Assembly: GCA_964387825.1 (NCBI GenBank)
Contig: CAYLWZ010000004.1
Span: forward strand, 1 to 56,731
Reading direction: 5' to 3'
Length of the DNA stretch: 56,731 bases
Origin: an uncultured Candidatus Saccharibacteria bacterium
GTDB lineage: Bacteria; Patescibacteriota; Minisyncoccia; Minisyncoccales; GWA2-38-27
Positions 1,637-56,300 of this stretch are shown here, piece by piece. Each line of letters opens with the position of its first letter. Position 1 is the stretch's first letter. Both the position numbers and the translations under genes were made by a program. Below the pieces are notes generated by a model. The model made no database searches. It was given only the letters and a program-made list of their open reading frames with translations, and was not told the DNA's origin.

Positions 1637-1754
1637 AAATTAAATTGTTAGATTGTTGCGATATTATATGGCGTATACTGGACAGCGTTGAATTTTGTCT
1701 ATCCCATATTTTTTACGATCGTAGAAAACATGGTATATTGCTACCCCCTTAAGT

Positions 1755-4256: not shown

Positions 4257-5636
4257 TTACTTTCCTTTTCTGACGATTTTCGGTTTTTTGCCGCTAAAAT
4301 CAATCACCGTTGAAGGAAAGCTCCGCGGTAAGTTTCCTGCGTCTAAAATTAAATCCGGCCTAATTTCCTGTTTTTCAAATTGTTCCAAAATTTCTTTGAT
4401 TTTTACCGAAGAAACCCTCCCGGAAATATTGGCAGAAGTAGCGGTCACCGGCTTGTTTATCTTCTTAATTATTCGGGCAATCAACTCATAATCGGGAATC
4501 CTCAAGCCAACCGTCTTTTTTCCGCCGGTTAATAGTTTTGACAAGCCGGATTTCTCTTTCTTTCTTAAAGCCACTGTTATTTTCCCGGGCCAAACTTCCT
4601 CTAAAAACCTTTCCATATTTTTATCCACATTAGCCACCTTTTTCGCCATTTCCATATCTTTTACAAAAATAGATATTGCTTTTTCTTTGTCTCTTTCTTT
4701 TATCTTAAAAACTTTCTCCACCGCCTTATCGTTAGTGGCATCCGCTAAAAGACCGTAAACAGTGTCTGTGGGGCAAACTACAACCTGTCCCCTTTCTAAA
4801 AACTTTACCGCCTCTTCCGCCGCGTCTCTCGCCCTGAAAGAAATAATTTTAAAATATCTTTCTTTCCAAAAAAGTTTTTTAAACTTCTGAAAAGATTTTA
4901 AAAAATAAGAAACTTTTATCACATCCGCAGGATTGCCAAAATCCAACCAATAATCTTTTATAATCTTAACTTTAACTTTCTTCTCTTTGGCTAAGAGATT
5001 TACAACATCGGTAATTTCATATTCGCCCCGGGGAGATTTAGAAATTTTTCCAAGTTTTTTAAACACTTCTGGAGTAAACTTATACAAGCCGGCGTTAATC
5101 AAATTTCCCAGAAAAATTTTCGGCTTTTCAACAATTTTTTTCAAAAATTCTTTATCAATCGCAAGAACGCCGTATTTTTCGGGATTTTTATCATAAACAG
5201 CGGACAGATAATTATATTTTCCATTGGCGTTCATCATCGCTTTCAGGTCTCTCGCCGAATAAAGATTGTCCCCGCAAAGATAAACAAACTGGCTTTTTTT
5301 AACAATATTTTCCAGGCACATTAAGGGACAAGCAGTGCCGTATATTTTATTTTTAGGCCCTAAAACATCATACTGGCTGACCATTCTAATTTTATACTGG
5401 CTTTTTCTCAAACTTTTAAGCGGTGGTTTGTATTTCGCCAAAAAATCTCTTATTAGCTCTTCTCTATATCCGACAACCAAAATTAAATCTCTATAGCCGG
5501 CCGAAAAAAGATTATCTAAAAGATAAGCCAAAAAGGGCCTTTTTTTAACATTAATAAGATGTTTTGATTTACCTTTTGTAAGATGAAGCATCCGCGTCCC
5601 CTGACCCGCGGCCGCTATAACCACTTTTTTAATCAT
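4257..5636 (-). CDS. Fusion: sugar-phosphate nucleotidyltransferase (N-term) + Sua5/YrdC threonylcarbamoyl-AMP synthase (C-term)
   Basis: AAAGQGTRM...K and SPRGEYEITD in N-half; CPTDTVYGL, KIKER, TSANISG, PSTVID in C-half; single open frame. Confidence 0.85.
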   Translation of the reverse strand: MIKKVVIAAAGQGTRMLHLTKGKSKHLINVKKRPFLAYLLDNLFSAGYRDLILVVGYREELIRDFLAKYKPPLKSLRKSQYKIRMVSQYDVLGPKNKIYGTACPLMCLENIVKKSQFVYLCGDNLYSARDLKAMMNANGKYNYLSAVYDKNPEKYGVLAIDKEFLKKIVEKPKIFLGNLINAGLYKFTPEVFKKLGKISKSPRGEYEITDVVNLLAKEKKVKVKIIKDYWLDFGNPADVIKVSYFLKSFQKFKKLFWKERYFKIISFRARDAAEEAVKFLERGQVVVCPTDTVYGLLADATNDKAVEKVFKIKERDKEKAISIFVKDMEMAKKVANVDKNMERFLEEVWPGKITVALRKKEKSGLSKLLTGGKKTVGLRIPDYELIARIIKKINKPVTATSANISGRVSSVKIKEILEQFEKQEIRPDLILDAGNLPRSFPSTVIDFSGKKPKIVRKGK

Positions 5637-5673: not shown

Positions 5674-8178
5674 TTAAACAACGAAATTAATTAATCTTCC
5701 GGGAACAAATATCGTTCTTTTGATTTTTTTGCCATCTGTCCATTTTTTGATTTTTTCCAAGGACAAACCAATCTTTTCCGCCTCCTCTTTAGCGATATCA
5801 GTCCTTGTCTCTATTTTATCACGAATCCTGCCATTAATTTGAACTATTAAAATTATTGTTTCTCTCTCAATTAATTTTTGCTCATATTTCGGCCATTTTG
5901 CTTTAGAGCATATACTTTTAAAACCGGCTCTTATCCATACTTCCTCTGAAAAATGAGGAGCAAACGGTGATAAAATTTTCAGAAAGTTTTTAAAATCTTC
6001 TTTTTTCAAACTATCTTCATTCCTCGCCCAGTCATTTGAAAATTCCATCAAAGAACTTACAGCCGTATTAAATTTCAAGGAGTCAATATTCTCTGAAACT
6101 TTTTTTATTGTTTTTTGAAGAATCCTTTTCAGGTCTTGAGATTCCTTCTTTTTTTCTTCTCCAAGGGATTCTCGGCAATGAATTCTATTTTTTTGAAAAA
6201 CGATTGTCTTGTCGGCTAATTTCCAAACTTTTTCTAAAAATTTCTTTGCTCCTTTCAAGCCCTTGGTGTTCCAGGGAATTGCTTGTTTGAAAGGACCTAA
6301 AAACATTTCGTAAAGCCGCAAAATATCTGCTCCGTATTCTCTTACAATTTCATCGGGATTAATAATATTGCCTTTTGATTTTGACATTTTGATTCCGCCT
6401 TCGCCAAGAATCACGCCATGGCTGGTTCGTTTCCGGTACGGTTCCGGTCCAACTAATTTTGGGACAACGCCGATATCCCATAAAAATTTATAAATAAAAC
6501 GGGAATACAATAAATGCAAAGTGGTATGCTCCATTCCGCCGTTATACCAGTCAACCGGCATCCAGTATTTAAGCAATTCTGGGCTGGCTAACTTTTTATC
6601 ATTTTGAGGGTCGCAATAACGAAGATAATACCAATTGGAACCTGCCCAATTAGGCATCACGTCTGTTTCTCTCTTGGCCGGCCCCCCGCATTTGGGACAC
6701 TTGACATTCACCCAATTTTCAACTTTGGTTAAAGGCGATTCTCCCTCTTCAGTAGGTTTATATTCTTTAACCTTAGGCAACTTAATCGGCAAGTCCTTTT
6801 CCGGAACCGGAACCCAGCCGCATTTTTTACATTTAACCATTGGAATCGGTTCCCCCCAATATCTCTGCCGGGAAAAAACCCAATCTCTCAATTTATAATA
6901 AACCCCTCTCTTGGCAAGGCCTCTTTTAGAAAGCCTTTCGGTTATTTTTTCCCTTGCTCTTTCTGATTTTATTCCAGTGAATCTGCCAGAATTAATTAAA
7001 ATCCCTTCCCCCTCGTAGGCCTGACTAACACCCGCTTTCCCTTCAATTAACTGAGAACTGTTCTCCGTTGCTGTCTCTGTAGTTTCTGTTGGCTTTATGA
7101 CTTTGATAACCGCTAAATTGTATCTCTTGGCAAAATCAAAATCCCGCTGGTCATGGGCAGGCACCGCCATTATCGCCCCGGTTCCATAATGCATTAAGAC
7201 ATAATCCGCTATAAAAATAGGGATTTCCCTTCCATTGACCGGATTTATTGCTTTAATTCCTTTTAGTTCCACTCCTGTTTTTTCTTTGTCTTCCGAAATT
7301 CTCTCTCTTTCCACTTTTTTCTTTGATTTCTCAATATATTCCTCAATAAATTTATAGTTCACTATTTGATTTTTAATTTTTTCAATTAAAGGATGTTCCG
7401 GCGCCATTACCAGATAAGAGCAACCGAACAAAGTATCCGGCCTAGTGGTAAAAACAGGAATTTTGTTTTCTCCCGCCTTAAATTCTATCTCTATCCCTTC
7501 GCTCTTCCCTATCCACTCCTTCTGGGATATTTTAACTCGCCTTGGATAATCAACATAAGACAAATCATCAATCAATCTTTCGGCATATTTAGTAATTTTT
7601 AACATCCATTGCTCTTTTTCTTTTTTCGTCACCTCGGCTCCGCAACGCTCGCATTTTCCATCTACCACCTCTTCATTAGCCAAACCAATTTTACAGGACG
7701 GACACCAATTAATGGGCATTTTTGACTTATAGGCCAAGCCTTTCTTAAAAAGCTGTAAAAATATCCATTGAGTCCATTTATAATAATCAGGGTCTGTAGT
7801 ATTAATTTCCCTGCTCCAATCAAAAGAAAGCCCCAGATTTTTCTGCTGACGCTTAAAATTAACCGTGTTTTTTTTAGTCACTATCGCCGGATGAATTCCC
7901 GTTTTGACGGCATAGTTTTCCGTAGGCAAACCGAAAGCGTCCCAGCCCATAGGAAATAAAACATTAAATCCTTCCATTCTTTTTTTTCGCGCCACTATGT
8001 CCAGTCCAATATAGCTCCGACAGTGACCGATATGAAGTCCTTTTCCCGAGGGATAGGGAAATTCAACCATAAGGTAAAATTTCCTTTTCTTTGACCGGTC
8101 TTTCGCCTCAAAAAGCTTTTTTTCTCCCCAAATCCTCTGCCATTTTTTTTCTATTCCTTTTGGATTATATCTTCTCAT
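5674..8178 (-). CDS. leuS: Leucine--tRNA ligase
   Basis: FPYPSG-LHIGH, FTTRPDT, SRQRYWGEPIP, KMSKS. Confidence 0.97.
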   Translation of the reverse strand: MRRYNPKGIEKKWQRIWGEKKLFEAKDRSKKRKFYLMVEFPYPSGKGLHIGHCRSYIGLDIVARKKRMEGFNVLFPMGWDAFGLPTENYAVKTGIHPAIVTKKNTVNFKRQQKNLGLSFDWSREINTTDPDYYKWTQWIFLQLFKKGLAYKSKMPINWCPSCKIGLANEEVVDGKCERCGAEVTKKEKEQWMLKITKYAERLIDDLSYVDYPRRVKISQKEWIGKSEGIEIEFKAGENKIPVFTTRPDTLFGCSYLVMAPEHPLIEKIKNQIVNYKFIEEYIEKSKKKVERERISEDKEKTGVELKGIKAINPVNGREIPIFIADYVLMHYGTGAIMAVPAHDQRDFDFAKRYNLAVIKVIKPTETTETATENSSQLIEGKAGVSQAYEGEGILINSGRFTGIKSERAREKITERLSKRGLAKRGVYYKLRDWVFSRQRYWGEPIPMVKCKKCGWVPVPEKDLPIKLPKVKEYKPTEEGESPLTKVENWVNVKCPKCGGPAKRETDVMPNWAGSNWYYLRYCDPQNDKKLASPELLKYWMPVDWYNGGMEHTTLHLLYSRFIYKFLWDIGVVPKLVGPEPYRKRTSHGVILGEGGIKMSKSKGNIINPDEIVREYGADILRLYEMFLGPFKQAIPWNTKGLKGAKKFLEKVWKLADKTIVFQKNRIHCRESLGEEKKKESQDLKRILQKTIKKVSENIDSLKFNTAVSSLMEFSNDWARNEDSLKKEDFKNFLKILSPFAPHFSEEVWIRAGFKSICSKAKWPKYEQKLIERETIILIVQINGRIRDKIETRTDIAKEEAEKIGLSLEKIKKWTDGKKIKRTIFVPGRLINFVV

Positions 8179-8267
8179 TTTTTTATCTATTTATTAGACA
8201 ATATAACATAATAAATTTATTTTAAAAAGTTCCCAAGCAAAAAAAGGAGTTGAGCTCCTCCTTTTGC

Positions 8268-8305
8268 TTACTCTAATAATGTCCGATCGGACATTATTAG
8301 AGTAA
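8268..8305. repeat. Perfect 38-bp palindrome, TCTAATAATGTCCGATCGGACATTATTAGA family, copy 1 of 4
   Basis: TTACTCTAATAATGTCCGA|TCGGACATTATTAGAGTAA. Confidence 0.95.
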
Positions 8306-9193: not shown

Positions 9194-10658
9194 AAAGATT
9201 TAATCGAGGAAACAACGAGTTCCCTCTTTTTCTTTTTACAAACTTTCCCGTTCTTTTGTCTCTTTCTATTTCTTTTTTAATTCTTTCTGAAGTTTCGGGC
9301 AAAAACGGTTCCAGCATTTGAGCGATACTGTCTAAAGAAATCAGTAAATCATTAATGATTGACGGCTTATTTTTAACGTCTTCCCAAGGTCGGGTTTGTT
9401 CAATATATTTATCGCAAAAACTAATCAATCCCCAAATTGCTTTCAAAGATTCATTAAACTTAAATTCTTCTAAAGCTTTTTTATAATTCTCCAAAATTTT
9501 ATCAACCCTTTTTTGAAAATTGGGATTTGAAAATTTATTGAAAATTGAAAATTGAAAATTGAAAATTTTAGCAAGGGTTATTACTCTTGCCACCAAGTTT
9601 CCCAAACCATTTGCTAAATCGCTATTATATCTCTCCTCAAATTTTTTATAAGTAAAATCGCCGTCCTCGGCCGGAGGGATTTCTCTTAAGAGAAAATACC
9701 TTACAGCGTCTGTTCCATATTTTCCAACAAGCTCAAAAGGGTCAACAATATTTCCTAACGATTTTGATATTTTTTGCTTGTCAATATTGATAAATCCATG
9801 GACAAAAATTTTTTTTGGAAGTTCCAATCCAAGAGATAAAAGTATTGCCGGCCATATTAAAGCGTGAAATTTCAATATATCCTTGCCAACGCAATGGACA
9901 TCCGCCGGCCAATATTTTTTAAATTCTTTGCCATCGGGATACCCTAACGCTGAAACATAATTCAGAAGAGCGTCTGCCCAGACATAAATTGTTTGAGTTG
10001 AGTCGCCGGGAACCTCTATCCCCCATTTTAACCTTGACCTTGACCTTGAGAAACTAATATCTGTAAGTTTCCGTCTGATAAAACCCAGCGCTTCGTTTTT
10101 TCTTGTTTTAGGAATAATTTTTATTTTATCTTTTTCTAAAATTTTCTCTATTTTTCCCGCGTATTTTGAAAGACGAAAAAAATAATTTTCTTCCCTAACG
10201 ACTTCCGGCTTTTTTTTATGGATAGGACATTTGCCTTTAATTAACTCTCTTTCGGCAATAAAGGCCTCGCAGCCCGAACAATAAAGCCCCTCATATTTTT
10301 TTTTATAAATATCTCCTTTGTTTTCTATCTTCCTCCAAATCTTTTTCACTGTCGGCCAATGCCTCTTTTTATCAGTAGTTTTGATAAAATCGTCATTGGA
10401 GATATTTAAAATTTTCTCTAACTCTTTAAATCTGTTTGAAATTTTATCAACAAGCTCTTTCGGCGTTTTCCCTGCTTTCTTTGCCGCTTCGGCAATTTTT
10501 ATCCCGTGCTCATCAGTCCCGGTCAGAAAGAAAACATCATCGCCTATAATACGATGATAGCGGGCTAATACATCTGCCTGGACCGCTTCTAAAGCAAAGC
10601 CAATATGGGGGAAAGCATTAGCATAAGCTATGCTTGTTGTTATATAAAATTTCCTCAT
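9183..10658 (-). CDS. metG: Methionine--tRNA ligase (short form)
   Basis: YAN..PHIG, FLTGTDEHG, YVWADAL, GKDILKFH, KISKS. Confidence 0.96.
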   Translation of the reverse strand: MRKFYITTSIAYANAFPHIGFALEAVQADVLARYHRIIGDDVFFLTGTDEHGIKIAEAAKKAGKTPKELVDKISNRFKELEKILNISNDDFIKTTDKKRHWPTVKKIWRKIENKGDIYKKKYEGLYCSGCEAFIAERELIKGKCPIHKKKPEVVREENYFFRLSKYAGKIEKILEKDKIKIIPKTRKNEALGFIRRKLTDISFSRSRSRLKWGIEVPGDSTQTIYVWADALLNYVSALGYPDGKEFKKYWPADVHCVGKDILKFHALIWPAILLSLGLELPKKIFVHGFINIDKQKISKSLGNIVDPFELVGKYGTDAVRYFLLREIPPAEDGDFTYKKFEERYNSDLANGLGNLVARVITLAKIFNFQFSIFNKFSNPNFQKRVDKILENYKKALEEFKFNESLKAIWGLISFCDKYIEQTRPWEDVKNKPSIINDLLISLDSIAQMLEPFLPETSERIKKEIERDKRTGKFVKRKRGNSLFPRLNLYVN

Positions 10659-11697: not shown

Positions 11698-11826
11698 AAT
11701 TTTCAATTATCAATTTTCAATTATCAATAAATTTTCCAATTAACCAATTTTCAAACAAAGTCATAAAATTTGAATATTGAAAAATTGAGATTTTATTGAA
11801 AATTGGTCATTGAAAATTGAAAATTA
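11698..11826. repeat. Two-armed (TTTTCAA)n/(TTGAAAA)n element; inverted copy at 39468-39613
   Basis: Left arm of TTTTCAA/TTATCAA units, right arm of TTGAAAA units; both arms match the reverse complement of 39468-39613. Confidence 0.85.
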
Positions 11827-27399: not shown

Positions 27400-27921
27400 T
27401 TACAATGAAAGAAAATCATTGGCTTTTTTAAGGATTTCTTTCACTTTTTTAAATGATAACTGTTTAAGGGCTTCTTCGTAAGGCAGCCATTTAAAGTCCG
27501 TATGTTCAAAAGAAATTTTTACTTCTTTGGTTCTCGTTTCAGCCAATAAAAAAGTGACTATTTTAAAAACCCAAGGAGCTTTTTCTTCTTGCCCGCCTCG
27601 GCTATGCCGAAGGCGTTGCGGGCGGGCCTGCCCGCCGCGTTTTCCGTTGGAAGCGGAAGGCAAGCGAGGATTTTTTTTTAATCCATAAATATCTCGAAAA
27701 GCGTATTTTGTATACTCTTTAAACCCTTTGAGCACTCTGATGTTCTCAAGCCCGGTTTCTTCTTTAACCTCTCTTCTTGCCGTATCTTCCTCTTTTTCCC
27801 CTCCTTCAATATGCCCTTTGGGAAAACCCCAATGCCCTGCCCCATAATGAAGAAGCAGATAATAAGTTTTATTATTCTCTTTTCTGAAAATAACGGCCCC
27901 AGCCGATGTTTCTCTTGGCAT
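27400..27921 (-). CDS. NUDIX hydrolase (Ap4A hydrolase-like) with in-frame palindrome insertion
   Basis: SAGAV, WGFPKGHIE.GE...TARREVKEETG Nudix box, EH..FKWL. Confidence 0.9.
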   Translation of the reverse strand: MPRETSAGAVIFRKENNKTYYLLLHYGAGHWGFPKGHIEGGEKEEDTARREVKEETGLENIRVLKGFKEYTKYAFRDIYGLKKNPRLPSASNGKRGGQARPQRLRHSRGGQEEKAPWVFKIVTFLLAETRTKEVKISFEHTDFKWLPYEEALKQLSFKKVKEILKKANDFLSL

Positions 27922-27992: not shown

Positions 27993-28036
27993 GCCTTCTT
28001 CTAATAATGTCCGATCGGACATCATTAGAAGAAGGC
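27993..28036. repeat. 44-bp palindrome (one mismatch), TCTAATAATGTCCGATCGGACATTATTAGA family, copy 2 of 4
   Basis: GCCTTCTTCTAATAATGTCCGA|TCGGACATCATTAGAAGAAGGC. Confidence 0.95.
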
Positions 28037-28094
28037 AAAAAATCCCTTGTCGGGGTTAGACCCCGACAACCCCGGTAATCTCCCTTAAAAATAA

Positions 28095-30545
28095 TTATTC
28101 AGAAAAATTAGAAACCCATTCAGGCGCTTGTGGCGGTTCAGAGCTTAACACATCCCGCCATTTTTCATCGGTTAACCGGTCTGACATCGGCTGCTTGAAT
28201 TCGTAATAAGTCATCACCGGACCTGCTCCGATTAAAATTCTGCCATCGGGAACCTTGTAAGCAACAATGATTAAATTAACATAGCCAACTCCTTCTTCCA
28301 AAACCTGCTCGGTGTTGCCATCGGTATGAACATCGGCGATAATAGTGGTTTTTTTTGCTTTCTCGTCAACATCGGCAATCACTCCGCTTAAATTGTCGCC
28401 AAAATCCTTAATAAAATTATAGTCATCCTTAGTTAATTCTTCGTTTTTCAATTCTTTTGTTGACAAGTCAATTAATCTTTTCAGTATTTCTTCTAAATTC
28501 TCCAATCTTGATTTTGAGGCCTCGTCCAAAACATTCATCTCGTCTAAACCCTTAGTAGTCATTTTAGTTAAGGCAAGCAACCGGTTATAAAATTCTGGAA
28601 CCGGTTCAATATATCCGACAACCGGTTTTTCAGGAGGAGGCACGCACTCTAGTACCATTGTATAACTCTGTTTGGCATAGAGTATGGTATCGTGCCTTAA
28701 TTCAGCCCAGGAGGCCAAAGCAGTAGTCAATTCCTTGTCTAACCAGGCCTTATTCTGCATAAAAGTCGGATAACCAACGCCAAAATCTTTTAAGAGGGCC
28801 TTTAAAGAAAACAGCCAGCTCCAATAAAGATTTTTGTTCCAATCCGCTTCGTCAAATTTAGCAAATTCCTCTTTTAATTTATCAAAAGCGGTTTCATAAG
28901 TAATTTTATTTCCGCTTGCGTCTGTCCCTGCGTATTCAGTGTCGCCTAATTCTTTCAAAAGTTCTTTTGCTCTTTGAGAACCCAATAAAGACATTACATC
29001 CAAACCGCGAGGGAAAACCCTGGCCGGTCCCCCGTTTGTCATCTCGCAGGTAAATGCTTCACTACAATCTTGACCTGAATATTGCCCCACGTAAGGAGAA
29101 ACCATATTGGAAAACATATAAGAATCGGGAATAAATCTCTGCCCCATCAATCTAAATCCCTTGGTGTTTTCCAAACATTCATCGGCCTGCTCCGGAGTAA
29201 ATGGAGGCCAAAGCTTGGCTTTTCCTGTCCCTCCATATATTTTAGGCGACATAAATTCTGCTAATTTTGCTTTTAATTTTCCCATATTTTCTTCGCTCAA
29301 ATCATTTGGGTCAAATTTTCCCTCAAAAACCGAATCCAGGGCCTCAATATATTCATAAGGGCCTAAATCATCAGACAATCCGACATAAAAAGCGGTTACC
29401 GAATAAATCCTATCCCATTTATCTTTTAATGCTTCGCTTTCCGCAAACCTGGAAGATATTAAACTGGCCCCCATTGTTTGAATCTTGGCGTCGTAATCAG
29501 AGATAAGGGCTTTACAGGGAGGAAAGTCATTACAAGCTTCTCCCTGTCCCACCTGGTCGGTTCCTTTCAAAAGCATGCTTATCCTGCCATACCACATAAA
29601 CGCCTTGAAATAATTTTTTAATTTCTCGCTTCTCGTATAATGCCCTCTGGGAACATATTGGGAATAATCTTCTTTGTAAATAAAGAGGGGAGAATTTGAA
29701 AATTCCTGATGCTTTTCTATCAAACTTAACTCTTTTTCTACATCGTTTTTTGCAAAATCAGGAACAGCAAAAGTATATTCGTTTAATTCCTCTTTCGTGA
29801 AGAAAGCGGTTTTGTCTTGACCCTGACATTCCCAGTCGTCTTTTTTGCATTCTTCTGCAACCTGCTCAGATTTTGGCTGAAGCAAACTTAAACCAACCGC
29901 GAAATAAGCGGCATTCCTCCTTGAGGCCTCTTTTAAATCTCCCGTAGCGTTATTGTATTTTTCAACTGAGTCGTCTAAAAGTCCTTTGCTAATTTGCCAT
30001 ATTTTATCGTAAAATTCTCTTTCTTCAACCTGTCTCAAGGTTTCGTCAAACTGGATATGATACAAATGCAATAGAGAATCAGAAGTGATGAATATGGGAA
30101 TTTTCTCATCTTTTAAAACTTCATATGGATAGGTAATACTTTCTTCCTTTGAATTAAAAATATTATTTACTACAACAAAACCGTTTTTCTCCAAAAGATT
30201 TAAGGTATCATTGCTTAAAGAAATTTTTTGGGAAAAATCTGAAAAATTATTTATATGGCTAGTCTTTAAAGGCAAACTATACCGGGAAACCTGAAGGGGA
30301 ATATCCAGGGAAGGCAGAGAATAATATTTTGCTAAACTTATCTTTTCGGTTTTAACCCCGGACAAATCAATTGGTTCTGTCTTGAGAGTTGACTTTTCCG
30401 AGGGAGGTTTCGGCTGAATTGGCAAAAACGGTTTCAACCAACATTGATAGACAAGAATTCCTCCAACCAAAACGGCGCAAACTGTAATAATGCTTATCGC
30501 TACTGGAAAAGATACTTTTTTATTCACCCCGTTAGAAATTTTCAT
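28095..30545 (-). CDS. DUF3160-family membrane-anchored protein
   Basis: N-terminal TM; FITSDSLLH.YH, PRGHYT, YFKAFMWYGR, MGQRFIPDS, SWAELRHDTILYAKQ motifs. Confidence 0.85.
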   Translation of the reverse strand: MKISNGVNKKVSFPVAISIITVCAVLVGGILVYQCWLKPFLPIQPKPPSEKSTLKTEPIDLSGVKTEKISLAKYYSLPSLDIPLQVSRYSLPLKTSHINNFSDFSQKISLSNDTLNLLEKNGFVVVNNIFNSKEESITYPYEVLKDEKIPIFITSDSLLHLYHIQFDETLRQVEEREFYDKIWQISKGLLDDSVEKYNNATGDLKEASRRNAAYFAVGLSLLQPKSEQVAEECKKDDWECQGQDKTAFFTKEELNEYTFAVPDFAKNDVEKELSLIEKHQEFSNSPLFIYKEDYSQYVPRGHYTRSEKLKNYFKAFMWYGRISMLLKGTDQVGQGEACNDFPPCKALISDYDAKIQTMGASLISSRFAESEALKDKWDRIYSVTAFYVGLSDDLGPYEYIEALDSVFEGKFDPNDLSEENMGKLKAKLAEFMSPKIYGGTGKAKLWPPFTPEQADECLENTKGFRLMGQRFIPDSYMFSNMVSPYVGQYSGQDCSEAFTCEMTNGGPARVFPRGLDVMSLLGSQRAKELLKELGDTEYAGTDASGNKITYETAFDKLKEEFAKFDEADWNKNLYWSWLFSLKALLKDFGVGYPTFMQNKAWLDKELTTALASWAELRHDTILYAKQSYTMVLECVPPPEKPVVGYIEPVPEFYNRLLALTKMTTKGLDEMNVLDEASKSRLENLEEILKRLIDLSTKELKNEELTKDDYNFIKDFGDNLSGVIADVDEKAKKTTIIADVHTDGNTEQVLEEGVGYVNLIIVAYKVPDGRILIGAGPVMTYYEFKQPMSDRLTDEKWRDVLSSEPPQAPEWVSNFSE

Positions 30546-30741: not shown

Positions 30742-30777
30742 TCCTCTAATAATGTCCGATCGGACATTATTAGAGGA
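30742..30777. repeat. Perfect 36-bp palindrome, copy 3 of 4 (3' of the PaaX-like gene)
   Basis: TCCTCTAATAATGTCCGA|TCGGACATTATTAGAGGA. Confidence 0.95.
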
Positions 30778-30802
30778 AGACGAAAAAAACAAAAAAATAA
30801 GA

Positions 30803-31360
30803 TTACTCTAAGTCAAAACATTTCCTCATGTCTTGGTCGTCATTTATTTTTTCTATTCTCAAAAATCTAATATCCCCTTTAAAATCTATTCTCCAAAGTT
30901 TCAATAACAGAAACAATTCTTTTTCTATATCATAGGGAAAAATCCAGATGCTTTTTTGAAGTTCTTGAAATCCCATCCACTTAAGCTCGTTCCTTAAAAA
31001 TGCTCTTTCTCTTCTGTTTAATTCTGGAATATCAAAAATAATTGCCCTCCACCTTCCATCCCATTTTATTTTTTTATTTTTTTTCTCTTTAATAATGGTT
31101 CTAATAATTTCTATCCGTCCTTTGTGAGTTAGATAAAATGTATTATTTTGAAAATTAAAATATGGACTCTTTTTTAAATTAGAAACGTTTCTTGAAAAAT
31201 GGGGGAAACTAGATATCTTGTCATTATAAATACCCATCCCTTTAGTTATCTCATAGGGATTAAAAATTATCTTAATGCCTACGTCGAAGAGATCTTTTGA
31301 GGTTTCGCTCAAATAATTTAAAATTCCCTTGCTTAATGAATTTTTTCCTGGTTTTTTCAT
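30803..31360 (-). CDS. PaaX-like protein with Cas2-like C-terminal domain
   Basis: YLT.KG wing motif, then WDGRWRAIIFDIPE.R.ER..LR..L...GF..LQKSIWIFPY. Confidence 0.82.
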   Translation of the reverse strand: MKKPGKNSLSKGILNYLSETSKDLFDVGIKIIFNPYEITKGMGIYNDKISSFPHFSRNVSNLKKSPYFNFQNNTFYLTHKGRIEIIRTIIKEKKNKKIKWDGRWRAIIFDIPELNRRERAFLRNELKWMGFQELQKSIWIFPYDIEKELFLLLKLWRIDFKGDIRFLRIEKINDDQDMRKCFDLE

Positions 31361-31378
31361 AAAAATAAAAATGTTATT

Positions 31379-31414
31379 TCTTCTAATAATGTCCGATCGG
31401 ACATTATTAGAAGA
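31379..31414. repeat. Perfect 36-bp palindrome, copy 4 of 4 (18 nt upstream of the PaaX-like ATG)
   Basis: TCTTCTAATAATGTCCGA|TCGGACATTATTAGAAGA. Confidence 0.95.
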
Positions 31415-31465: not shown

Positions 31466-33238
31466 TTATCTAAAGAATTTTAAAAGTTGATTTAAAGACC
31501 AGGTATTAATAATATCTTTTTTTTCTGCCCAGCCGCGGCGCGCTTGAGATATTCCGTATTTAATATTCGCCAACTGGTCTTTATGATGAGAATCTGTATT
31601 GATGGCCATTTTCACTCCCACCTCCTTTGCTCTTCTGATATAAGAATCTTTCAGGTCTAATCTTCCCGGATAGGAATTTATTTCCAAAGCCACCCTGAAT
31701 TCTTTGGCTGCTCTTAAAACTTTATCAAAATCAATTTGATACGCCTCCCTGCGTTTAATTATCCTTCCAAAGGGATGAGCAATGATATTGATATTCGGAT
31801 TTTTAATCGCTTTAATTATTCTTTCGGTCATTTTGTCCTTCTTCATTTTAAGATTAGAATGAATTCCGGCAATAGCATAATCTAATTTCGCAAGCGCCTC
31901 GTTTTTTATATCAATTGAACCGTCTTTCAAGATATTAGTTTCCGCTCCCTGTAATACTTGAAACTTAAAACCTGAGACTTGAAACTTTTTATTCAATATA
32001 TTAATTTCCTTGCGTTGCCGGGCTAATTGTTTTTCATTCAACCCGCGCTCAATTCTCAAAAATTTTGTATGGTCGGTAATCCCCAGATATTGGTAGCCCA
32101 TTTTTTGGGCAACTTCCGCCATCTGGGTAATTGAATTTTTCCCGCCGTTCCAATCTGAATGGCAATGGAGGTCTCCCATTATGTCGTCATAGTCAATAAT
32201 CTTTGGTAATCCAGGGAGCTTGCCCTGAGCTTGTCGAAGGGCGGCTTCAATCTCTCCTCTGTTTGTTCTCATTTCCGGAGGAATCCAAGAGAGCCCGATT
32301 GCGTTATAAACTTCTTCTTCGGTTTTCCCGGCTATCATCTTTTTACCCTGAAACACTCCATATTCATTAAGTTTTAACCCCTTTTCTATGGCAATTTTTC
32401 TGGTAACAATATTATGCTCTTTTGAGCCGGTGAAATATTGAAGAGCAGAGCCGTAACTTTTTTCCGGGACCACTCTTAAGTCTATATCAAAACCGTTTCT
32501 CATTCTGACAGACGACCTTGTTAAACCTTTTCCCCAAATTTTAATAACCCCTGGTTGGGAAACAAAAAAATCCATTATTTCAGCCGCCGACTTTTCAGAT
32601 TCATCAGGTCTTTTGGATTCTTTAACAGTTATCAAAATATCAACATCGCCGACTGTCTCATTCATTCTTCTTACCGAACCGGCAACGCTTATTTTCTCAA
32701 CCTCCTTTAAGCTTTTTAATTTTCCCAAAATTTCTTCTGCCGCCGGCATTATATCGCCTAAAAGAAATCTTCCCTTGCTCTTCTTTAAAAATTTAATCGC
32801 TTCTAAAATATTCTTTTCCGTTTTCTCTCCAAAACCAAATAAAGGAGCGATTTTACGCTCCCCGGCCGCTTTTTCTAAATCTTTTAAATTTCTAATTCCC
32901 AATTTCTGATAAAGAACTTTTGCCTGTTTAGGGCCCATTCCTTCAACGCCAATTATTTCCTCTAAATTAATTGGTGTTTTCTTTTTTAATTTTTCGTAAT
33001 ATCCAATCTTTCCCGTCTTAATGTATTCTTCAATTTTTGAAGCAATGCTCTTGCCCACTCCAGGAATATTTTCCAACGCCTCTATTCCTCCTTTTTTATA
33101 AATTTTTCCAATGTCTTCTTCTAAATTTTCTACCATAATAGCCGCCTTTCTGTAAGCAGATGGTTTAAAAGCGATTTCCTCCATTTTTAGATAATCGGCA
33201 GTTGCGTAAAAAATCTTTGATAACTCCTTGTTTATCAT
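31466..33238 (-). CDS. polX: DNA polymerase X / PHP 3'-5' exonuclease
   Basis: HhH IPGVGKSIA, AGSVRR..ETVGDVD, YFTGSKEHN, DLHCHSDW, ITDH, EINS.P.RLD, TDSH. Confidence 0.93.
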   Translation of the reverse strand: MINKELSKIFYATADYLKMEEIAFKPSAYRKAAIMVENLEEDIGKIYKKGGIEALENIPGVGKSIASKIEEYIKTGKIGYYEKLKKKTPINLEEIIGVEGMGPKQAKVLYQKLGIRNLKDLEKAAGERKIAPLFGFGEKTEKNILEAIKFLKKSKGRFLLGDIMPAAEEILGKLKSLKEVEKISVAGSVRRMNETVGDVDILITVKESKRPDESEKSAAEIMDFFVSQPGVIKIWGKGLTRSSVRMRNGFDIDLRVVPEKSYGSALQYFTGSKEHNIVTRKIAIEKGLKLNEYGVFQGKKMIAGKTEEEVYNAIGLSWIPPEMRTNRGEIEAALRQAQGKLPGLPKIIDYDDIMGDLHCHSDWNGGKNSITQMAEVAQKMGYQYLGITDHTKFLRIERGLNEKQLARQRKEINILNKKFQVSGFKFQVLQGAETNILKDGSIDIKNEALAKLDYAIAGIHSNLKMKKDKMTERIIKAIKNPNINIIAHPFGRIIKRREAYQIDFDKVLRAAKEFRVALEINSYPGRLDLKDSYIRRAKEVGVKMAINTDSHHKDQLANIKYGISQARRGWAEKKDIINTWSLNQLLKFFR

Positions 33239-33241
33239 AAT

Positions 33242-33316
33242 CCCGTTTTCAGAGATGCCCCGTTGGATCAAGGGACAGTCAAGGGACAGTCAAGGGACAG
33301 TCCCTCCCCTGTCCCT
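33242..33316. repeat. (AGGGACAGTCA)x3-CCTCCCCTGT repeat, copy 2 of 2
   Basis: 42 bp identical to 24836-24877; AGGGACAG/CTGTCCCT hairpin at 33293-33316. Confidence 0.9.
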
Positions 33317-43866: not shown

Positions 43867-43950
43867 GCGGACGTGGCGGAACAGGTATACGCCCTGGCCT
43901 CAGAAGCCAGGGGGCGCAAGCCCATGAGAGTTCAATTCTCTCCGTCCGCA
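43867..43950 (+). tRNA. tRNA-Leu(CAG)
   Basis: Acceptor GCGGACG/CGTCCGC, anticodon stem CTGGC/GCCAG with loop CTCAGAA, long variable arm, T-loop TTCAATT, discriminator A; CCA not encoded. Confidence 0.95.
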
Positions 43951-48234: not shown

Positions 48235-48280
48235 AAGTAAAAAATCTATTGATTTTTATTCAAATATATTATATCATAAA

Positions 48281-48342
48281 ATATCTAATATCCACTATCT
48301 AATATTCAATATCCAATAAATATCTAATATCTAATATCTAAT
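48281..48342. repeat. Degenerate (ATCTAAT)n heptamer array directly before rpsF
   Basis: Units ATCTAAT/ATCCAAT up to the ATG. Confidence 0.75.
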
Positions 48343-49650: not shown

Positions 49651-49768
49651 ATGATAGATATTGGATATTAGATCTTAGTCTAAAAAACAAAAAAAACAGC
49701 TTAAAGCTGTTTTTTTATCATCTAATATCTAATATCTAATATCTAATATCTAATATCTAATATCTAAT
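49648..49768. repeat. TTAGATA-type left arm / (ATCTAAT)x7 right arm enclosing a bidirectional terminator
   Basis: Seven perfect units at 49720-49768; AAAAAAAACAGC-TTAAA-GCTGTTTTTTT hairpin in the middle, between convergent rpsR and recA. Confidence 0.85.
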
Positions 49769-53214: not shown

Positions 53215-53352
53215 AATTTTGAATTTTGAATTTCTAATCAATTTAGAATGATAGAATTTTGAATGAATTAATAAACGGAATAAATCTGTTTCAAAATTGA
53301 GTTATTAGATTATTCAAAATTTATTCAAAATTCAAAATTCAAAATTCAAAAT
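53215..53352. repeat. Two-armed (TTTTGAA)n/(TTCAAAA)n element; copy of 43698-43849
   Basis: Shared arms, different centre. Confidence 0.85.
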
Positions 53353-56300
53353 TATTTTCTAAACCCTGTTCCCGCCGGTATTAACTTTCCAATAATAACG
53401 TTCTCTTTTAGTCCTCTTAATTTGTCTTCCTTGCCTTCAAGGCAGGTTTTAATCAAGACCCGAGAAGTTTCTTGAAAAGAAGCAGACGATAAAAATGAAT
53501 CTGTTGTAAGGGCAACCCGCGATATGCCCAATAAAATAATAGCGGCTTTTGCCGGATTTTTTTTCTCCTTCTTCAACTTCTCGTTTTCTTCAAGAAACCT
53601 TGCCTTCTCAATAACCTCTCCGATTATAAAAGGGCTATCTCCCGGTTCCTTTATTTTAACCCGCGAAAACATCTGACGAATTATTGTCTCAATATGCTTA
53701 TCGTGAATAAAGGCGCCCTGGGAAACATAAATTTTTTGAATCTCATTTAAAATATATTTTTGCGTTTCTTCTCTACGCCCTGTTTTAAAAATTTCTTTTA
53801 GGTCCAAACTCCCTTCGCAAAGCTGTTCTCCTTTTTTAACATCCTGCCCTTTTTTCACTAAAATTGCCGACTTGGAAGATATTTTATATTCAATAATGTC
53901 TCTTTTCTTCTTTGTTTTGGATTTTGACGCTTTGTTGTAAGCGTTTTCCCAGGATTGAGAATCTAAAATTTTCGGCTCTATTGTAATTATCCTTTCCTTT
54001 ACCGTTCCGTTTGATAGTCTCGTTTCTATAATGTCTAAAACTTTTCCTTCAACAAAAGAAATTTCTGCTTTCCCGCCAGGCGTTCTCGCCTCAAAAACTT
54101 CCTGCACCCTCGGAAGGCCGAGAGTAATATCTCCTCCGCCCACTACTCCGCCAGTATGAAAGGTTCTTAACGTAAGCTGGGTGCCCGGCTCGCCGATTGC
54201 CTGAGCAGCAACAATTCCCACCGCTTCTCCCAACTTAACTAATCTGTCATGGCCAAGGTCCCAGCCGTAACATTTTCGGCAAACACCTCGAACAGATTTA
54301 CAGGAGAGAGGAGACCTGGCGACAATCCTGTCAACCTCCTCTGCTTTTATCTTTCGCGCCACCGCCCAATCAATTATTTCGCCCTTTTTGACAATCACCT
54401 TATTTTTTGTTTTTTTTGATTTGACGTCCTCCAATACTATCCTGCCAATGGTCTTATAAATAAACTTTTGGCCTAATTCATCAGCGTCCTTTTTTAATAA
54501 CTCAACTCCTTTTTGGTCTCCGCAATCCTCTTCCGACACCACTACGTCATGAGCGACGTCAACAAGACGCCTGGTTAAATAACCAGCCGTTGAAGTGCGA
54601 AGAGCAGTATCCGCCGTTCCTTTCCGCGCCCCGTGAGTAGAAATAAAATATTCCAAGACATCAAACCCTTCTTTAAAAGAATGCTTTACCGGCATCTCAA
54701 TAATCTGGCCGGACGGATTGATAACCAGCCCTTTCATTCCGGTCATTTGGATTGGCTGGGTCCAAGAACCTCTGGCGCCGGAATCAATCATTGAAAATAC
54801 CGATCCCGTATCAGACAAAGTTTTCGGAACAAGTTTTTCTAATTTTGTCTTCGCTCTTGTCCAAACCTCAACCACCTTACTGCTTTTTTCCTCTTTAGAA
54901 AGAAGTCCTTTCTTGAGATAACTATTAATAGAATCAATTTCTCGCTCGGCGTTCTTCATAATTTCTTTTTTTTCTGGAGGAACTATCAAATCATCCATAC
55001 CCCAGGTTATGCCGGAAATGGTAGCCGATTCAAAACCTAAATCCTTAATTCTGTCCAATGTCTCTTCCGCTTCTTTCTGGCTATATTTATTAATAAACAA
55101 ACTAACTATCTTTTTTATTTTTTTCCCGTTAACCGTCTCGTTAAAAAATGGATAGCCGAGAGGTAAGGTTTCGTTAAACAAAATTCTTCCAACCGATGTT
55201 TCTATCACGCTTTGCATTCGCACCCGGATGCGGGCTCTCAAATTTATAAAACCGGATTCGTAGGCTAAAATCGCTTCTTCGGGACCGGAAAATACTCTTT
55301 TCCCGTTAATGTCCTGGCCAATAATTCTAGTTAGCCAATAACAACCAAGAACAATATCTTGAGTCGGGACGATAACCGGAGTGCCGCTCGCCGGTTTTAA
55401 TAAATTAAGAGAAGAGAGCATAAGTGTTTTTGCCTCTTCTTGCGCTTTCTCACTCAAAGGAAGATGGACTGCCATTTGGTCGCCGTCAAAATCGGCGTTG
55501 AACGCCTTACAAACCATCGGGTGTAAATGAATTGATTCCCCTTCCACTAAAAGCGGCTGAAAGGCCTGGATTCCCAAACGGTGAAGAGTCGGAGCCCTGT
55601 TTAAAAGAACAGCTTTATCTTTCACCACTTCTTCTAAAATCGCCCAAACATCGTCTGTCTGCCGCTCTATCAGCCTGCCAGCTCCTCGAACATTATAGGA
55701 AAGCTCTTTTTCTAAAATCTTTCTAATAACAAAAGGTTTAAATAATTCCAAAGCCATTTTTTTGGGAAGCCCACATTGGTGAAGCTTCAGTTTCGGCCCT
55801 ACGACAATTACCGACCTCCCTGAATAATCAACTCTCTTTCCTAAAAGATTTTGGCGAAATCTGCCTCGTTTTCCTTTAATAATATCGGCTAAAGATTTTA
55901 AGAGCCTCCTCCCGCCGGTAGTAGCAGTCGTTAAAATTCCTTTCCTCATACTGTTGTCAATTAAAGCGTCCACTGCCTCTTGAAGCATTCTTTTTTCATT
56001 TCTGACAATAACTTCCGGCGCCGCGATTTCCAGCAGATATTTCAGACGATTATTCCTATTAATTACTCTCCGATAAAGGTCGTTTAAATCAGAAGAAGCG
56101 TAACGGCCGCCGTCTAATTGAACCATCGGCCTTAAATCAGGAGGCAGAATCGGCAGGACTGTTAAAAACATCCATTCGGGCTTAATTCCAACGGCAAGCA
56201 TACCTTCTAACAACCTTAACCGCCTTAAAAGCTTCCGCCGAGTCATCGCTGTTTCTTTTTCCGCTTTTTTCTTTAGCGCCTTGATTTCTTTTTTTAAATC

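What the first reader, a model, noticed from the sequence alone, without database searches (positions are those of the whole stretch)
30742..31414. PaaX-like/Cas2-like gene bracketed by two copies of a perfect 36-bp palindrome that also occurs solo
Seen: the 185-aa gene has the same 30-bp core (TCTAATAATGTCCGATCGGACATTATTAGA) 25 nt after its stop and 18 nt before its ATG; two more copies lie alone at 8268-8305 and 27993-28036. Established: the PaaX central domain is Cas2/VapD-like, and this protein keeps the FD acidic position and the QxS motif. REP/RAYT loci set a precedent for a gene flanked by the palindromes it disperses. Inference: either (a) a mobile cassette whose product binds, cuts or spreads these palindromes, or (b) a repressor with long operator sites forming a regulon that includes itself. 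No paa catabolic genes, cas1 or CRISPR array are in the window.
Basis: partly seen in the sequence, partly recalled or inferred. Interest (0 to 1): 0.85.

Follow-up and report, generated by a model that had tools for sequence, protein, structure and literature searches.

The report
Cas2-like regulator gene bracketed by palindromes
A small DNA-binding protein with a Cas2/VapD-like domain, in an uncultured Parcubacteria genome, has the same perfect 36-bp palindrome just before and just after its gene; 10 of the 13 relatives examined have the same layout, each with its own palindrome, so protein and palindrome form an undescribed cognate pair, most likely a self-regulating repressor and its operators.

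Summary
The 30-mer occurs four times (one copy with 1 mismatch; 0 expected): 18 nt before the ATG and 25 nt after the stop of gene 30803-31360(-), and alone at 8268-8305 and 27993-28036.

The protein is a winged helix plus a Cas2-like domain (PF20803, E 2e-19; best fold matches E. coli PaaX, Rv0674 and Cas2). It lacks PaaX's C-terminal effector domain. Unlike PaaX, it keeps the Cas2/VapD catalytic Asp and Ser.

The main new result concerns relatives. In 11 of 14 family genes with usable context, the gene is bracketed by two copies of its own zero-loop palindrome. Such palindromes are 90-fold enriched at the gene ends (p ~1e-23). The dyad centre is CGATCG or CGGCCG in 12 of the 13 genes that have a palindrome.

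The gene is syntenic (MFS-PolX-...-NUDIX-L20), so it is not a freely mobile cassette.

Best reading (~0.5): a minimal PaaX-type dimeric autorepressor with long operators and a small regulon.

Three findings do not fit a plain operator. Copies within one genome are near-identical, the two arms covary, and an identical 39-nt copy lies inside a miaB gene of a relative; the same 22-bp core also sits in an RPE-like insert in other Patescibacteria. These keep a nuclease or REP/RAYT-like reading alive (~0.25).

Genome-wide copy number could not be measured.

The parts
30803..31360 (-). 185-aa gene: N-terminal winged helix (about residues 9-77), linker helix, Cas2/VapD-like ferredoxin domain (about 100-170) with invariant FDIPE (D110) and QKSIW (S137)
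   Evidence: ORF. PF20803 E 2.3e-19. AF2 model pLDDT 82. Foldseek top hits PaaX 8A39, Rv0674 3KFW and SpCas2 5ZYF. Conserved motifs.
31379..31414 (.). Upstream copy of the palindrome (arms 18, perfect), 18 nt before the ATG and 51 nt after the PolX stop
   Evidence: A promoter-like site at 31463-31436(-) lies just upstream of it.
30742..30777 (.). Downstream copy (arms 18, perfect), 25 nt after the stop and about 200 nt before the DUF3160 ATG
27993..28036 (.). Solo copy (arms 22, 1 mismatch) between DUF3160 and NUDIX. It follows a separate terminator-like hairpin (28069-28047) and lies 71 nt before the NUDIX ATG. The orthologous position is also occupied in L023, L028 and L039.
8268..8305 (.). 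Solo copy (arms 19, perfect) between the TatD stop and the LeuRS start, followed on the minus strand by a separate terminator-like hairpin (8270-8234)
1700..1737 (.). Imperfect palindrome of a different sequence but with the same CGATCG dyad centre, between the PAP2 and FolD genes. It may be a site for another paralogue; membership is uncertain.
   Evidence: Weak hairpin, z -2.2.
31466..33271 (-). PolX (pol-beta-like plus PHP) gene, the conserved upstream neighbour
   Evidence: synteny
28095..30545 (-). DUF3160 gene, itself flanked by two palindrome copies. It occupies a slot that holds other genes, or none, in relatives.
27400..27921 (-). NUDIX hydrolase gene, preceded by a palindrome in 4 of the 5 syntenic genomes that reach it

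Best explanation
The 185-aa protein is a minimal PaaX-type DNA-binding protein. Two variable winged-helix domains are held together by a conserved Cas2-like dimerisation core, and the perfect palindrome is its cognate duplex-DNA site.

Inferred geometry: the two winged helices read the outer arms (CTAATAA/TTATTAG in this lineage), and the conserved Cas2-like dimer lies over the dyad centre CGRYCG.

Inferred function: the copy 18 nt upstream of the ATG gives autorepression. The copy at the 3' end either cooperates with it through a ~600-bp loop or acts as a protein roadblock that gates read-through into the next gene. The two solo copies extend control to NUDIX and perhaps LeuRS/DUF3160, a small regulon.

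Shown here: the pairing of gene and palindrome across the family, the fold, and the site anatomy. Inferred: binding, repression and looping.

The symmetry of the variable arm positions is attributed to template-switch 'quasipalindrome correction' during replication rather than to function. No inducer can be named, because the PaaX effector domain is absent.
For: 1. The four copies are far beyond chance.

2. In 11 of 14 family genes the same palindrome lies just upstream of the ATG and at or just after the stop, and each gene has its own sequence. Complete brackets: window, L023, L028 (two paralogues), L030, L031, L032, L001, L038. Imperfect brackets: L033, L039.

3. Zero-loop palindromes matching at 12 or more of 14 positions are 90-fold enriched within 70 bp of the gene ends (16 of 35 lie in 0.9% of 199 kb; binomial p 1e-23).

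4. The fold is a winged helix plus a Cas2-like domain. The best structural match is E. coli PaaX.

5. PaaX autorepresses and binds a long inverted repeat, TGATTC-N27-GAATCA (PMC9493321). That matches the unusual 30-36 bp site length here.

6. The N-terminal domain is hypervariable and the Cas2-like domain is conserved across 150 diverse representatives. In parallel, the arms vary while the CGRYCG centre is conserved.

7. P0017 and P0020 have identical recognition-helix regions and share the outer arm ATCTAATAA.

8. The dyad is perfectly symmetric through the centre in nearly every site (zero loop). This is expected for a twofold-symmetric dimer on duplex DNA, not for hairpin selection alone.

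9. In L030 and L038 a consensus TATAAT lies between the palindrome and the ATG, so the site overlaps the core promoter.

10. A palindrome precedes NUDIX in 4 of 5 syntenic genomes although its sequence has changed.

11. The gene is vertically inherited in a conserved framework.
Against: 1. Copies within a genome are identical over 30 or more bp, far more than a transcription factor needs. All copies have changed together between genomes that are 70% identical in the protein. This suggests copying or gene conversion rather than selection on individual sites.

2. The inner 3-5 bp differ between P0017 and P0020 although their winged helices are the same, yet these positions stay palindromic and are shared by both copies.

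3. Eleven independent differences between copies of one genome are compensated on the other arm. A plain operator does not predict this.

4. In two cases (L031, L001) the downstream copy lies between convergent genes, so it cannot be a promoter operator.

5. The family keeps the Cas2/VapD catalytic Asp and Ser, which true PaaX proteins have lost (PMC11980593).

6. An identical 39-nt copy lies inside a miaB coding region in a relative. The same 22-bp core sits in a MITE-like insert in genomes where no second copy exists.

7. Proteins that share the ATGTCCGA|TCGGACAT core (window, L032, L001) have dissimilar recognition helices.
Confidence: 0.5

Rival explanations
1. Site-specific nuclease or nickase module, functionally like REP/RAYT. 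The winged helices target the Cas2/VapD-like catalytic dimer to the dyad (CGRYCG) of its own palindromes. Cutting followed by repair from another copy, or hairpin formation, keeps all copies of a genome identical. It occasionally seeds new copies, including in coding sequence and in MITE-like elements, and makes the flanks a hot spot for gene gain and loss.
For: D110 and S137 are invariant and correspond to the Cas2/VapD catalytic Asp and Ser (PMC11980593). E. coli PaaX and Rv0674 lack the Asp. Weak but direct sequence matches to Cas2 models exist. Copies evolve in concert within each genome. The arms covary, including in the MITE-like element. A 39-nt identical copy lies inside miaB in L020. 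The same core is present in an 86-113-nt insert that interrupts glmS-like and MazG-like ORFs. Variable genes sit exactly at the two palindrome positions: DUF3160, a glycosyltransferase, a Galaxin-repeat protein and unknowns. The closest protein pair (75% identity) lies in different loci.
Against: Cas2-like domains have no known recombinase or transposase chemistry, and Cas2 catalysis is dispensable in CRISPR adaptation. Copy number is low where it can be judged: 4 copies in 57 kb here, no solo copies in several 20-kb loci, and one exact 22-mer in the complete 1.19-Mb genome OY970181. The gene is syntenic in seven genomes. The miaB copy does not change the length of the linker relative to homologues, so a simple insertion is not shown. 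Variable genes upstream of the gene are not flanked by a second palindrome on the PolX side. No relatives and no palindrome were found in IMG/VR viral contigs.
Confidence: 0.25
2. RNA-level autoregulation. Both palindromes are transcribed as identical 5' and 3' hairpins of the gene's mRNA, and the protein (a VapD/Cas2-type RNase with an RNA-binding winged helix) binds or cleaves them. Solo hairpins bring other mRNAs under the same control.
For: The palindromes hug the ORF, 6-32 nt before the ATG and often containing the stop codon. They fold as very stable hairpins (-14.5 to -18.7 kcal/mol as DNA, z -8 to -11). The arms covary. VapD and some Cas2 proteins are RNases in vitro (PMC11980593). A promoter-like site lies upstream of the 5' copy.
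Against: Mismatches in the arms show no bias towards G.U on the sense strand (11 G.U versus 9 A.C). The would-be 4-nt loop is itself always self-complementary, which an RNA hairpin does not need. No Rfam family matches. In L030 and L038 a TATAAT lies downstream of the 5' palindrome, so the palindrome would not be transcribed from that promoter.
Confidence: 0.1
3. No functional link. The palindromes are generic terminators or insulators, or an independent selfish palindromic repeat that merely accumulates next to this gene.
For: All four window copies are intergenic and downstream of a gene. The same core occurs in other Patescibacteria with no family gene nearby.
Against: None of the copies has a U-tract of its own, and two of them sit beside separate canonical terminator-like hairpins. 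Enrichment at family gene ends is 90-fold. Every gene has its own palindrome sequence at the same two positions, across non-syntenic loci and down to 27% protein identity.
Confidence: 0.05

Closest known systems
PaaX (GntR-like phenylacetyl-CoA-responsive repressor; PDB 8A39, 3L09; PaaX-like Rv0674, 3KFW)
   Same: It has an N-terminal winged helix plus a central Cas2-like dimerisation domain (PF20803), and PaaX is the best fold match. PaaX represses its own promoter and binds a long inverted repeat, TGATTC-N27-GAATCA. The window likewise has a long inverted repeat directly upstream of the gene.
   Different: It has no C-terminal PaaX_C effector domain and no paa genes. It scores 30 bits against TIGR02277, whose cut-off is 264. 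It keeps the Cas2/VapD Asp and Ser that PaaX and Rv0674 lack. The site is a perfect palindrome through the spacer. A second copy always sits at the 3' end of the gene.
Cas2 / VapD nuclease superfamily
   Same: [quoted passage not shown] Foldseek probability is 0.97-1.0 and TM about 0.6 on the Cas2 chains. Cas2 dimers lie along duplex DNA in Cas1-Cas2 (established knowledge).
   Different: It is fused to a winged helix. There is no cas1, CRISPR array or VapX/Y/W antitoxin nearby. It scores below the Cas2 family cut-off (18.6 versus 24.5 bits). Nuclease activity is untested.
REP elements with their RAYT gene (REPtron)
   Same: A single-copy, vertically inherited gene is flanked on both sides by the palindromes that also occur elsewhere in the genome. 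The palindromes are genome-specific and evolve in concert.
   Different: The protein is not an IS200/IS605-type HUH Y1 transposase. The palindromes are perfect, have zero loop and lack the GTAG-type 5' tetranucleotide. Only a handful of copies are seen, not tens to hundreds.
Rickettsia palindromic elements (RPE) and other in-frame MITEs
   Same: In other Patescibacteria the same palindrome core sits in an 86-113-nt element that interrupts coding genes. The element is often 87 nt long, which leaves the reading frame open. A 39-nt copy lies inside miaB in L020.
   Different: This applies to the related loci, not to the window's four intergenic copies. No mobilising enzyme has been identified.
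ParB-parS type centromere sites
   Same: These are short, perfect, zero-loop palindromes present in a few near-identical copies, with one in or next to the gene of the protein that binds them.
   Different: The protein family is different. The sites here differ between close relatives instead of being universally conserved. No parA partner is present.

Membership tests
PaaX repressor family (TIGR02277; PF07848 + PF20803 + PF08223) | Central Cas2-like domain PF20803 | tested here: met
   E 2.3e-19, 69.7 bits against a cut-off of 24
PaaX repressor family (TIGR02277; PF07848 + PF20803 + PF08223) | N-terminal winged-helix DNA-binding domain | tested here: met
   The AF2 model shows H9-20, H35-39, H53-64 and a wing at 68-77. 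The Foldseek top hit is PaaX 8A39. PADLOC WH_III-A matches at E 1.6e-4. PF07848 itself does not hit.
PaaX repressor family (TIGR02277; PF07848 + PF20803 + PF08223) | C-terminal helical effector (phenylacetyl-CoA) domain, with a full-length match above the equivalog cut-off | tested here: not met
   The protein ends at residue 185. There is no PF08223 hit. TIGR02277 scores 30.1 bits against a cut-off of 264.55.
PaaX repressor family (TIGR02277; PF07848 + PF20803 + PF08223) | Linked paa catabolic genes | tested here: not met
   None was found among about 46 annotated window ORFs, nor in the related loci.
PaaX repressor family (TIGR02277; PF07848 + PF20803 + PF08223) | Binds a long inverted-repeat operator at its own promoter and represses it | not testable with these tools
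   The sequence is compatible: a palindrome lies 18 nt upstream of the ATG, and in L030/L038 it overlaps a TATAAT promoter. Binding is untested.
Cas2 (CRISPR adaptation) | Cas2 fold with a conserved Asp at the end of beta-1 | tested here: met
   Foldseek probability 0.97-1.0 to the SpCas2 chains. FDIPE is conserved across the family.
Cas2 (CRISPR adaptation) | Score above the family cut-off; adjacent cas1 and CRISPR array | tested here: not met
   TIGR01573 scores 18.6 against a cut-off of 24.5. There is no cas1 and no array in the window.
VapD toxin (type II TA) | Catalytic Asp and Ser | tested here: met
   D110 and S137 are conserved. The catalytic roles are as described in PMC11980593. The correspondence rests on motif alignment, not on a structure-based alignment.
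VapD toxin (type II TA) | Adjacent VapX/VapY/VapW antitoxin gene | tested here: not met
   The neighbours are PolX and DUF3160, with only 105 and 257 nt of intergenic space.
REP/RAYT | HUH Y1 (IS200/IS605 TnpA-like) protein | tested here: not met
   Pfam, NCBIfam and fold searches give only PaaX and Cas2 matches.
REP/RAYT | Gene flanked by the genome's own repeated palindromes | tested here: met
REP/RAYT | Tens to hundreds of dispersed copies per genome | tested here: inconclusive
   There are 4 copies in 57 kb. The complete genome OY970181 holds one exact 22-mer. The metagenome scan is incomplete: L034-L037 carry the palindromes but were not returned. The source genome is not available.
Intrinsic terminator | GC-rich hairpin followed by a U-tract | tested here: not met
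   The tails after the stems are TATTTTATTG and TTGATCTTAT or have no T-run, and separate canonical terminator-like hairpins lie next to two copies.

The most novel reading that the evidence does not exclude
A large, undescribed family of winged-helix-guided Cas2/VapD-type nucleases. Each is encoded between two copies of the perfect palindrome it recognises. It would cut or nick at the CGRYCG dyad, which would keep its palindromes identical and occasionally spread them (into genes and into RPE-like MITEs), and would make its flanks a gene-exchange hot spot. Such a system would be a REP/RAYT-like or proto-CRISPR-repeat-like repeat-plus-Cas2 module that works without an HUH transposase or Cas1.
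Probability: 0.22. Interest if true: 0.9.

Novelty: new variant of a known kind. Interest (0 to 1): 0.62.

Why it matters
Candidate Phyla Radiation bacteria have few recognisable regulators. This family (at least 2,276 clusters at 50% identity) may be one of their main DNA-binding families, and the paper library searched here holds no description of it.

The rule 'each gene is bracketed by its own palindrome' gives a ready-made table of protein-site pairs. That table can be used to work out a winged-helix recognition code and to predict regulons in organisms that cannot be grown.

If the retained Cas2/VapD catalytic residues are active, the family would be the first Cas2-like enzyme with a defined sequence-specific target. 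It would also be a free-standing association of a Cas2 homologue with palindromic repeats, which bears on where Cas2 and CRISPR repeats came from.

Tried and rejected
- **Rfam.** Nothing matched at any palindrome in the window (gathering threshold) or in seven related loci (E up to 0.1).
- **Genome-wide copy number.** One scan each of genome contigs and metagenome contigs with a 22-mer core gave 3 and 19 loci. The source genome is not among the species representatives. The metagenome scan is demonstrably incomplete: contigs L034-L037 carry both palindromes but were not returned. Abundance therefore remains unknown.
- **Viral contigs.** No relatives of the protein and no palindrome were found, and there was no PHROG hit.
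- **Empty-site test for the miaB copy.** Homologues have a linker of the same length, so a clean insertion could not be shown.
- **Recognition code.** No visible correspondence between recognition-helix residues and the palindrome core was found across 12 pairs.
- **Sense-strand G.U bias as a test for an RNA hairpin.** None was found (11 versus 9).
- **Link between the centre type (GATC or GGCC) and local GATC depletion.** None was found.
- **PaaX-like genes near the MITE-like elements (L005, L012).** These genes have unrelated flanks.
- **'Cassette insertion at palindromes' as a general rule.** Only DUF3160 is flanked on both sides; variable genes on the PolX side are not.
- **Literature.** No paper was found on PaaX with Cas2, on PaaX in Patescibacteria, or on a Cas2-like winged-helix fusion of this kind.
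Full report
**Observation**

The 30-mer TCTAATAATGTCCGATCGGACATTATTAGA occurs exactly at 8272, 30745 and 31382, and with one mismatch at 28000. None of 100 shuffles gave a match. The full palindromes are 36-44 bp: 31379-31414, 30742-30777, 8268-8305 and 27993-28036.

Beyond the shared 30 bp, the arms differ between copies but stay complementary (TCT/AGA, TCC/GGA, TTAC/GTAA, GCCTTCT/AGAAGGC).

The gene 30803-31360(-) encodes 185 aa. The palindromes lie 18 nt before its ATG and 25 nt after its stop.

All four copies are intergenic. On the minus strand each lies upstream of a gene:
- the PaaX-like gene, 18 nt;
- DUF3160, about 200 nt;
- NUDIX, 71 nt;
- LeuRS, 89 nt.

The window is ordinary core chromosome of a Parcubacteria-type genome. 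It carries many aminoacyl-tRNA synthetases, SHMT, FolD, GroES/EL, RecA, SSB, RecO, FtsK, RpoC, and tmRNA with SmpB. It has no cas1, paa genes, transposase or CRISPR array.

**The protein**

Pfam gives PF20803 (PaaX central Cas2-like domain) at E 2.3e-19 and nothing else. NCBIfam gives sub-threshold PaaX and Cas2 matches. PADLOC gives weak Cas2 models and a winged-helix model.

[quoted passage not shown] The Foldseek top hits are E. coli PaaX (8A39), Rv0674 (3KFW) and many Cas2 chains.

The protein lacks PaaX's C-terminal effector domain.

FDIPE (D110) and QKSIW (S137) are conserved in close homologues and in 150 diverse cluster representatives. The N-terminal domain, by contrast, is hypervariable.

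In E. coli PaaX and Rv0674 the Asp is replaced (LSE-G, VTSIG). Asp and Ser are the catalytic pair of VapD (PMC11980593). S. pyogenes Cas2 shows the same FDMP...QFSVY pattern (my knowledge of that sequence; the match to Cas2 models is).

The family is large. It has 2,276 clusters at 50% identity with E<1e-10, mostly 175-200 aa. Named members come from Ca. Staskawiczbacteria, Parcubacteria and Patescibacteria.

**Relatives: the decisive result**

I fetched the context of 13 further family genes. In 11 of the 14 genes, one and the same palindrome lies 6-32 nt upstream of the ATG and at or just after the stop, often containing the stop codon. Each gene has its own sequence.

| Locus | Half-sites (left arm / right arm) |
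|---|---|
| L023 | CCCAATAATTGACGG / CCGTCAATTATTGGG |
| L028 | ATCTAATAAAGAACGG / CCGTTCTTTATTAGAT |
| L030 | ATCTAATAATCGACGG / CCGTCGATTATTAGAT |
| L031 | GCAAAAGTTGACGA / TCGTCAACTTTTGC |
| L032 | ACTTGTAAAATGTCCGA / TCGGACATTTTACAAGT |
| L038 | CTCCAAAAGTAGACGG / CCGTCTACTTTTGGAG |

- L001 and the second L028 paralogue, each only 27% identical to the window protein, are also bracketed.
- L033 and L039 have decayed brackets.
- L025 (the contig ends 34 nt after the stop) and L040 have only the upstream copy.
- L026 has none.

Zero-loop palindromes matching at 12 or more of 14 positions are 90-fold enriched within 70 bp of these gene ends (16 of 35 in 0.9% of 199 kb; p 1e-23). The pairing of gene and palindrome is therefore a property of the family, not an accident of this window.

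**Anatomy of the sites**

- **Centre.** The dyad centre is CGATCG or CGGCCG in 12 of the 13 genes that have a palindrome; the exception is the second L028 paralogue, whose centre is TATC. In the window all five CGATCG are palindrome centres.
- **Outer arm.** CTAATAA is shared by the PolX-locus orthologues and by L030. P0017 and P0020 have identical recognition-helix regions and the same outer arm, but differ at three inner positions.
- **Inner positions.** They differ between genomes, yet they are identical between the copies of one genome and are always symmetric.
- **Covariation.** Between copies of one genome I count 11 independent differences that are compensated on the other arm, against about 15 that are not. 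The MITE-like element described below shows the same.
- **Not terminators.** The sites have no U-tract, and separate canonical terminator-like hairpins sit next to the copies at 28047-28069 and 8234-8270.
- **No known RNA family.** There is no Rfam hit.
- **No sense-strand G.U bias.** The count is 11 versus 9.

The perfect symmetry through the centre argues for a twofold-symmetric protein on duplex DNA. The compensated arm changes argue for intrastrand pairing, either as a selected hairpin or cruciform, or as the known mutational effect of template switching at quasipalindromes (established knowledge; not tested here).

**Context**

Seven genomes share the framework MFS-PolX-[0-2 variable genes]-PaaX-like-[0-1 variable gene]-NUDIX-(MGMT)-L20/L35/IF3-SmpB (window). 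The gene is therefore inherited vertically.

The variable genes sit at the two palindrome positions. They are DUF3160 here and in L023, a glycosyltransferase in L040, a Galaxin-repeat protein in L039, and unknowns in L025 and L028. Only DUF3160 is flanked by palindromes on both sides.

A palindrome precedes NUDIX in 4 of 5 genomes.

The closest protein pair, P0017 and P0020 (75% identity), lies in different loci: the PolX locus and the KsgA/type-IV-secretion locus. P0020 and P0047 share a locus at only 49% identity. There has therefore been some relocation or replacement.

**The same core elsewhere**

A 22-mer core scan found 22 loci in other Patescibacteria.

- **L020.** It shares this window's unusual GATC depletion and a 130-bp repeat, so it is probably a close relative. 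It carries a 39-nt copy, 100% identical to the window's downstream copy, inside the variable linker of miaB. The linker has the same length in homologues.
- **Eight GC-rich contigs.** Here the core is the central hairpin of a conserved 86-113-nt element with unrelated flanks. The element interrupts a glmS-like ORF (87 nt, frame kept) and a MazG-like ORF (86 nt, frame broken). This resembles RPE-type in-frame MITEs.
- **Other copies.** They are solo and intergenic.
- **Copy number.** Three species-representative genomes each hold a single exact copy. One of them, OY970181 (1.19 Mb chromosome), has it at the 3' end of a family gene.

**Mechanism**

The best-supported account (about 0.5) is a minimal PaaX-type dimeric DNA-binding protein with long palindromic operators. 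It would repress itself from the upstream site. It would use the 3' site for looping or as a roadblock, and control a few more genes from solo sites.

This account is supported by the fold, by PaaX's known autorepression and TGATTC-N27-GAATCA operator, by the variable-domain/variable-arm and conserved-domain/conserved-centre parallel, by the zero-loop symmetry, and by TATAAT boxes abutting the site in L030 and L038.

It does not explain the 30-bp identity and concerted change of the copies, the intragenic and MITE-borne copies, or why the catalytic Asp and Ser are kept.

Those points sustain the rival that the Cas2/VapD-like dimer cuts or nicks at the dyad (about 0.25). An RNA-level version has no positive support (about 0.1). 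An unrelated-repeat or terminator reading is essentially excluded (about 0.05).

**Comparison and novelty**

The protein works most like PaaX, but it fails PaaX membership on the effector domain, the equivalog score and the gene neighbourhood.

It resembles Cas2 and VapD in fold and catalytic motif, but it fails their context criteria.

It resembles REP/RAYT in layout, but not in enzyme class or, as far as can be seen, in copy number.

I found no description of this family or of the bracket rule in the paper library. I rate it a new variant of a known kind, with a real chance of being something more unusual.

**Limits**

- No binding, cleavage or transcript data exist.
- The genome-wide copy number is unknown.
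- Only 14 gene contexts were examined.
- Promoter positions are consensus guesses.

Noticed in passing
L002:2914-2999, L004:10332-10418, L005:5550-5662, L009:817-903, L010:~1148-1234, L011:3119-3230 and ~5519-5605, L013 (minus strand), L016:1244-1329: A conserved 86-113-nt element: TGCGAGACGAAGCGAGA-[32-bp palindrome with the same core]-CGAGCGAGGCGAAGCAAACAAGGGT-loop-ACCCTTGAT, bordered by (TT)GAT on both sides. Its flanks are unrelated between loci. It interrupts a glmS-like ORF (87 nt, frame kept) and a MazG-like ORF (86 nt, frame broken; the joined flanks give one continuous ORF). It resembles an RPE-like in-frame MITE. There is no Rfam hit.
   Followed up: partly
L020:1542-1580: A 39-nt palindrome, 100% identical to window 30742-30780, lies inside the miaB coding sequence and encodes ...PLPLIMSDRTLLEE... 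in the variable linker. Homologues have a linker of the same length but a different sequence, and some lack the linker altogether. In L008 the related palindrome abuts the 3' end of miaA in a miaB-miaA operon.
   Followed up: partly
window, whole: GATC (25 observed, about 188 expected) and TCGA (35, about 188) are strongly depleted, while CCGG (251, about 63) and GGCC (150, about 63) are in excess. Five of the 25 GATC are palindrome centres, and no CGATCG exists outside palindromes. L020 shows the same bias. This suggests restriction-modification pressure on GATC and TCGA.
   Followed up: partly
window:1700-1737: An imperfect palindrome, CCCATATTTTTTACGA|TCGTAGAAAACATGG, has the same CGATCG centre and lies between the PAP2 and FolD genes. 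It may be a site for another family member encoded outside the window. Similar 'foreign' CGATCG-centred palindromes occur at L032:47-88 and L032:~7575-7603.
   Followed up: no
window:39467-39597 and 11712-11825; L020:6987-7119: A roughly 115-130-bp AT-rich repeat with internal inverted repeats (TTGAAAATTG motifs) is present twice in the window: in the groES-groEL spacer and upstream of the AI-2E transporter gene. It is 91% and 83% identical to a copy in L020.
   Followed up: no
window:19255-19340, 49720-49768, 48280-48342, 53323-53353, 33268-33302, 24836-24867; L026:~9900-10000: Short tandem repeats (7-mers such as TTACAAC x11 and ATCTAAT x7, and 11-mers AGGGACAGTCA / TCAAGGGACAG x3) sit in many intergenic regions directly upstream of genes (IleRS, recA, S6, rpoC, PolX, ArgRS). 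In L026 a CTAA/CTTA microsatellite replaces the upstream palindrome of the family gene.
   Followed up: no
window:27400-33969 and L023, L025, L028, L039, L040: The framework MFS-PolX-...-NUDIX-(MGMT)-L20/L35/IF3-SmpB is conserved. The slots immediately before and after the PaaX-like gene hold different genes in different genomes: DUF3160, a TreT-like glycosyltransferase, an 829-aa Galaxin-repeat protein, and 269/287-aa unknowns.
   Followed up: partly
L028:19260-19844: A second, distant family paralogue (27% identity) lies 9 kb from the first in the same genome. It is bracketed by its own imperfect palindrome (..CTACTnCTGCTA|TCGCAnAAGTAG..) whose centre is not CGRYCG.
   Followed up: partly
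window:25799-26206 and 43867-43950; L001:742-857: There is a tmRNA gene next to smpB, and one tRNA gene. A LOOT RNA (RF03000, 77 bits) lies in the unrelated locus L001.
   Followed up: no
L030, L032, L038: Three family genes sit between ksgA (RrnaAD) and a type-IV-secretion-like cluster (TrbL, PrgI, TraC-like, VirB4-like). A fourth (L031) follows four T4SS-pilin genes. This is a possible regulatory link to that apparatus.
   Followed up: no
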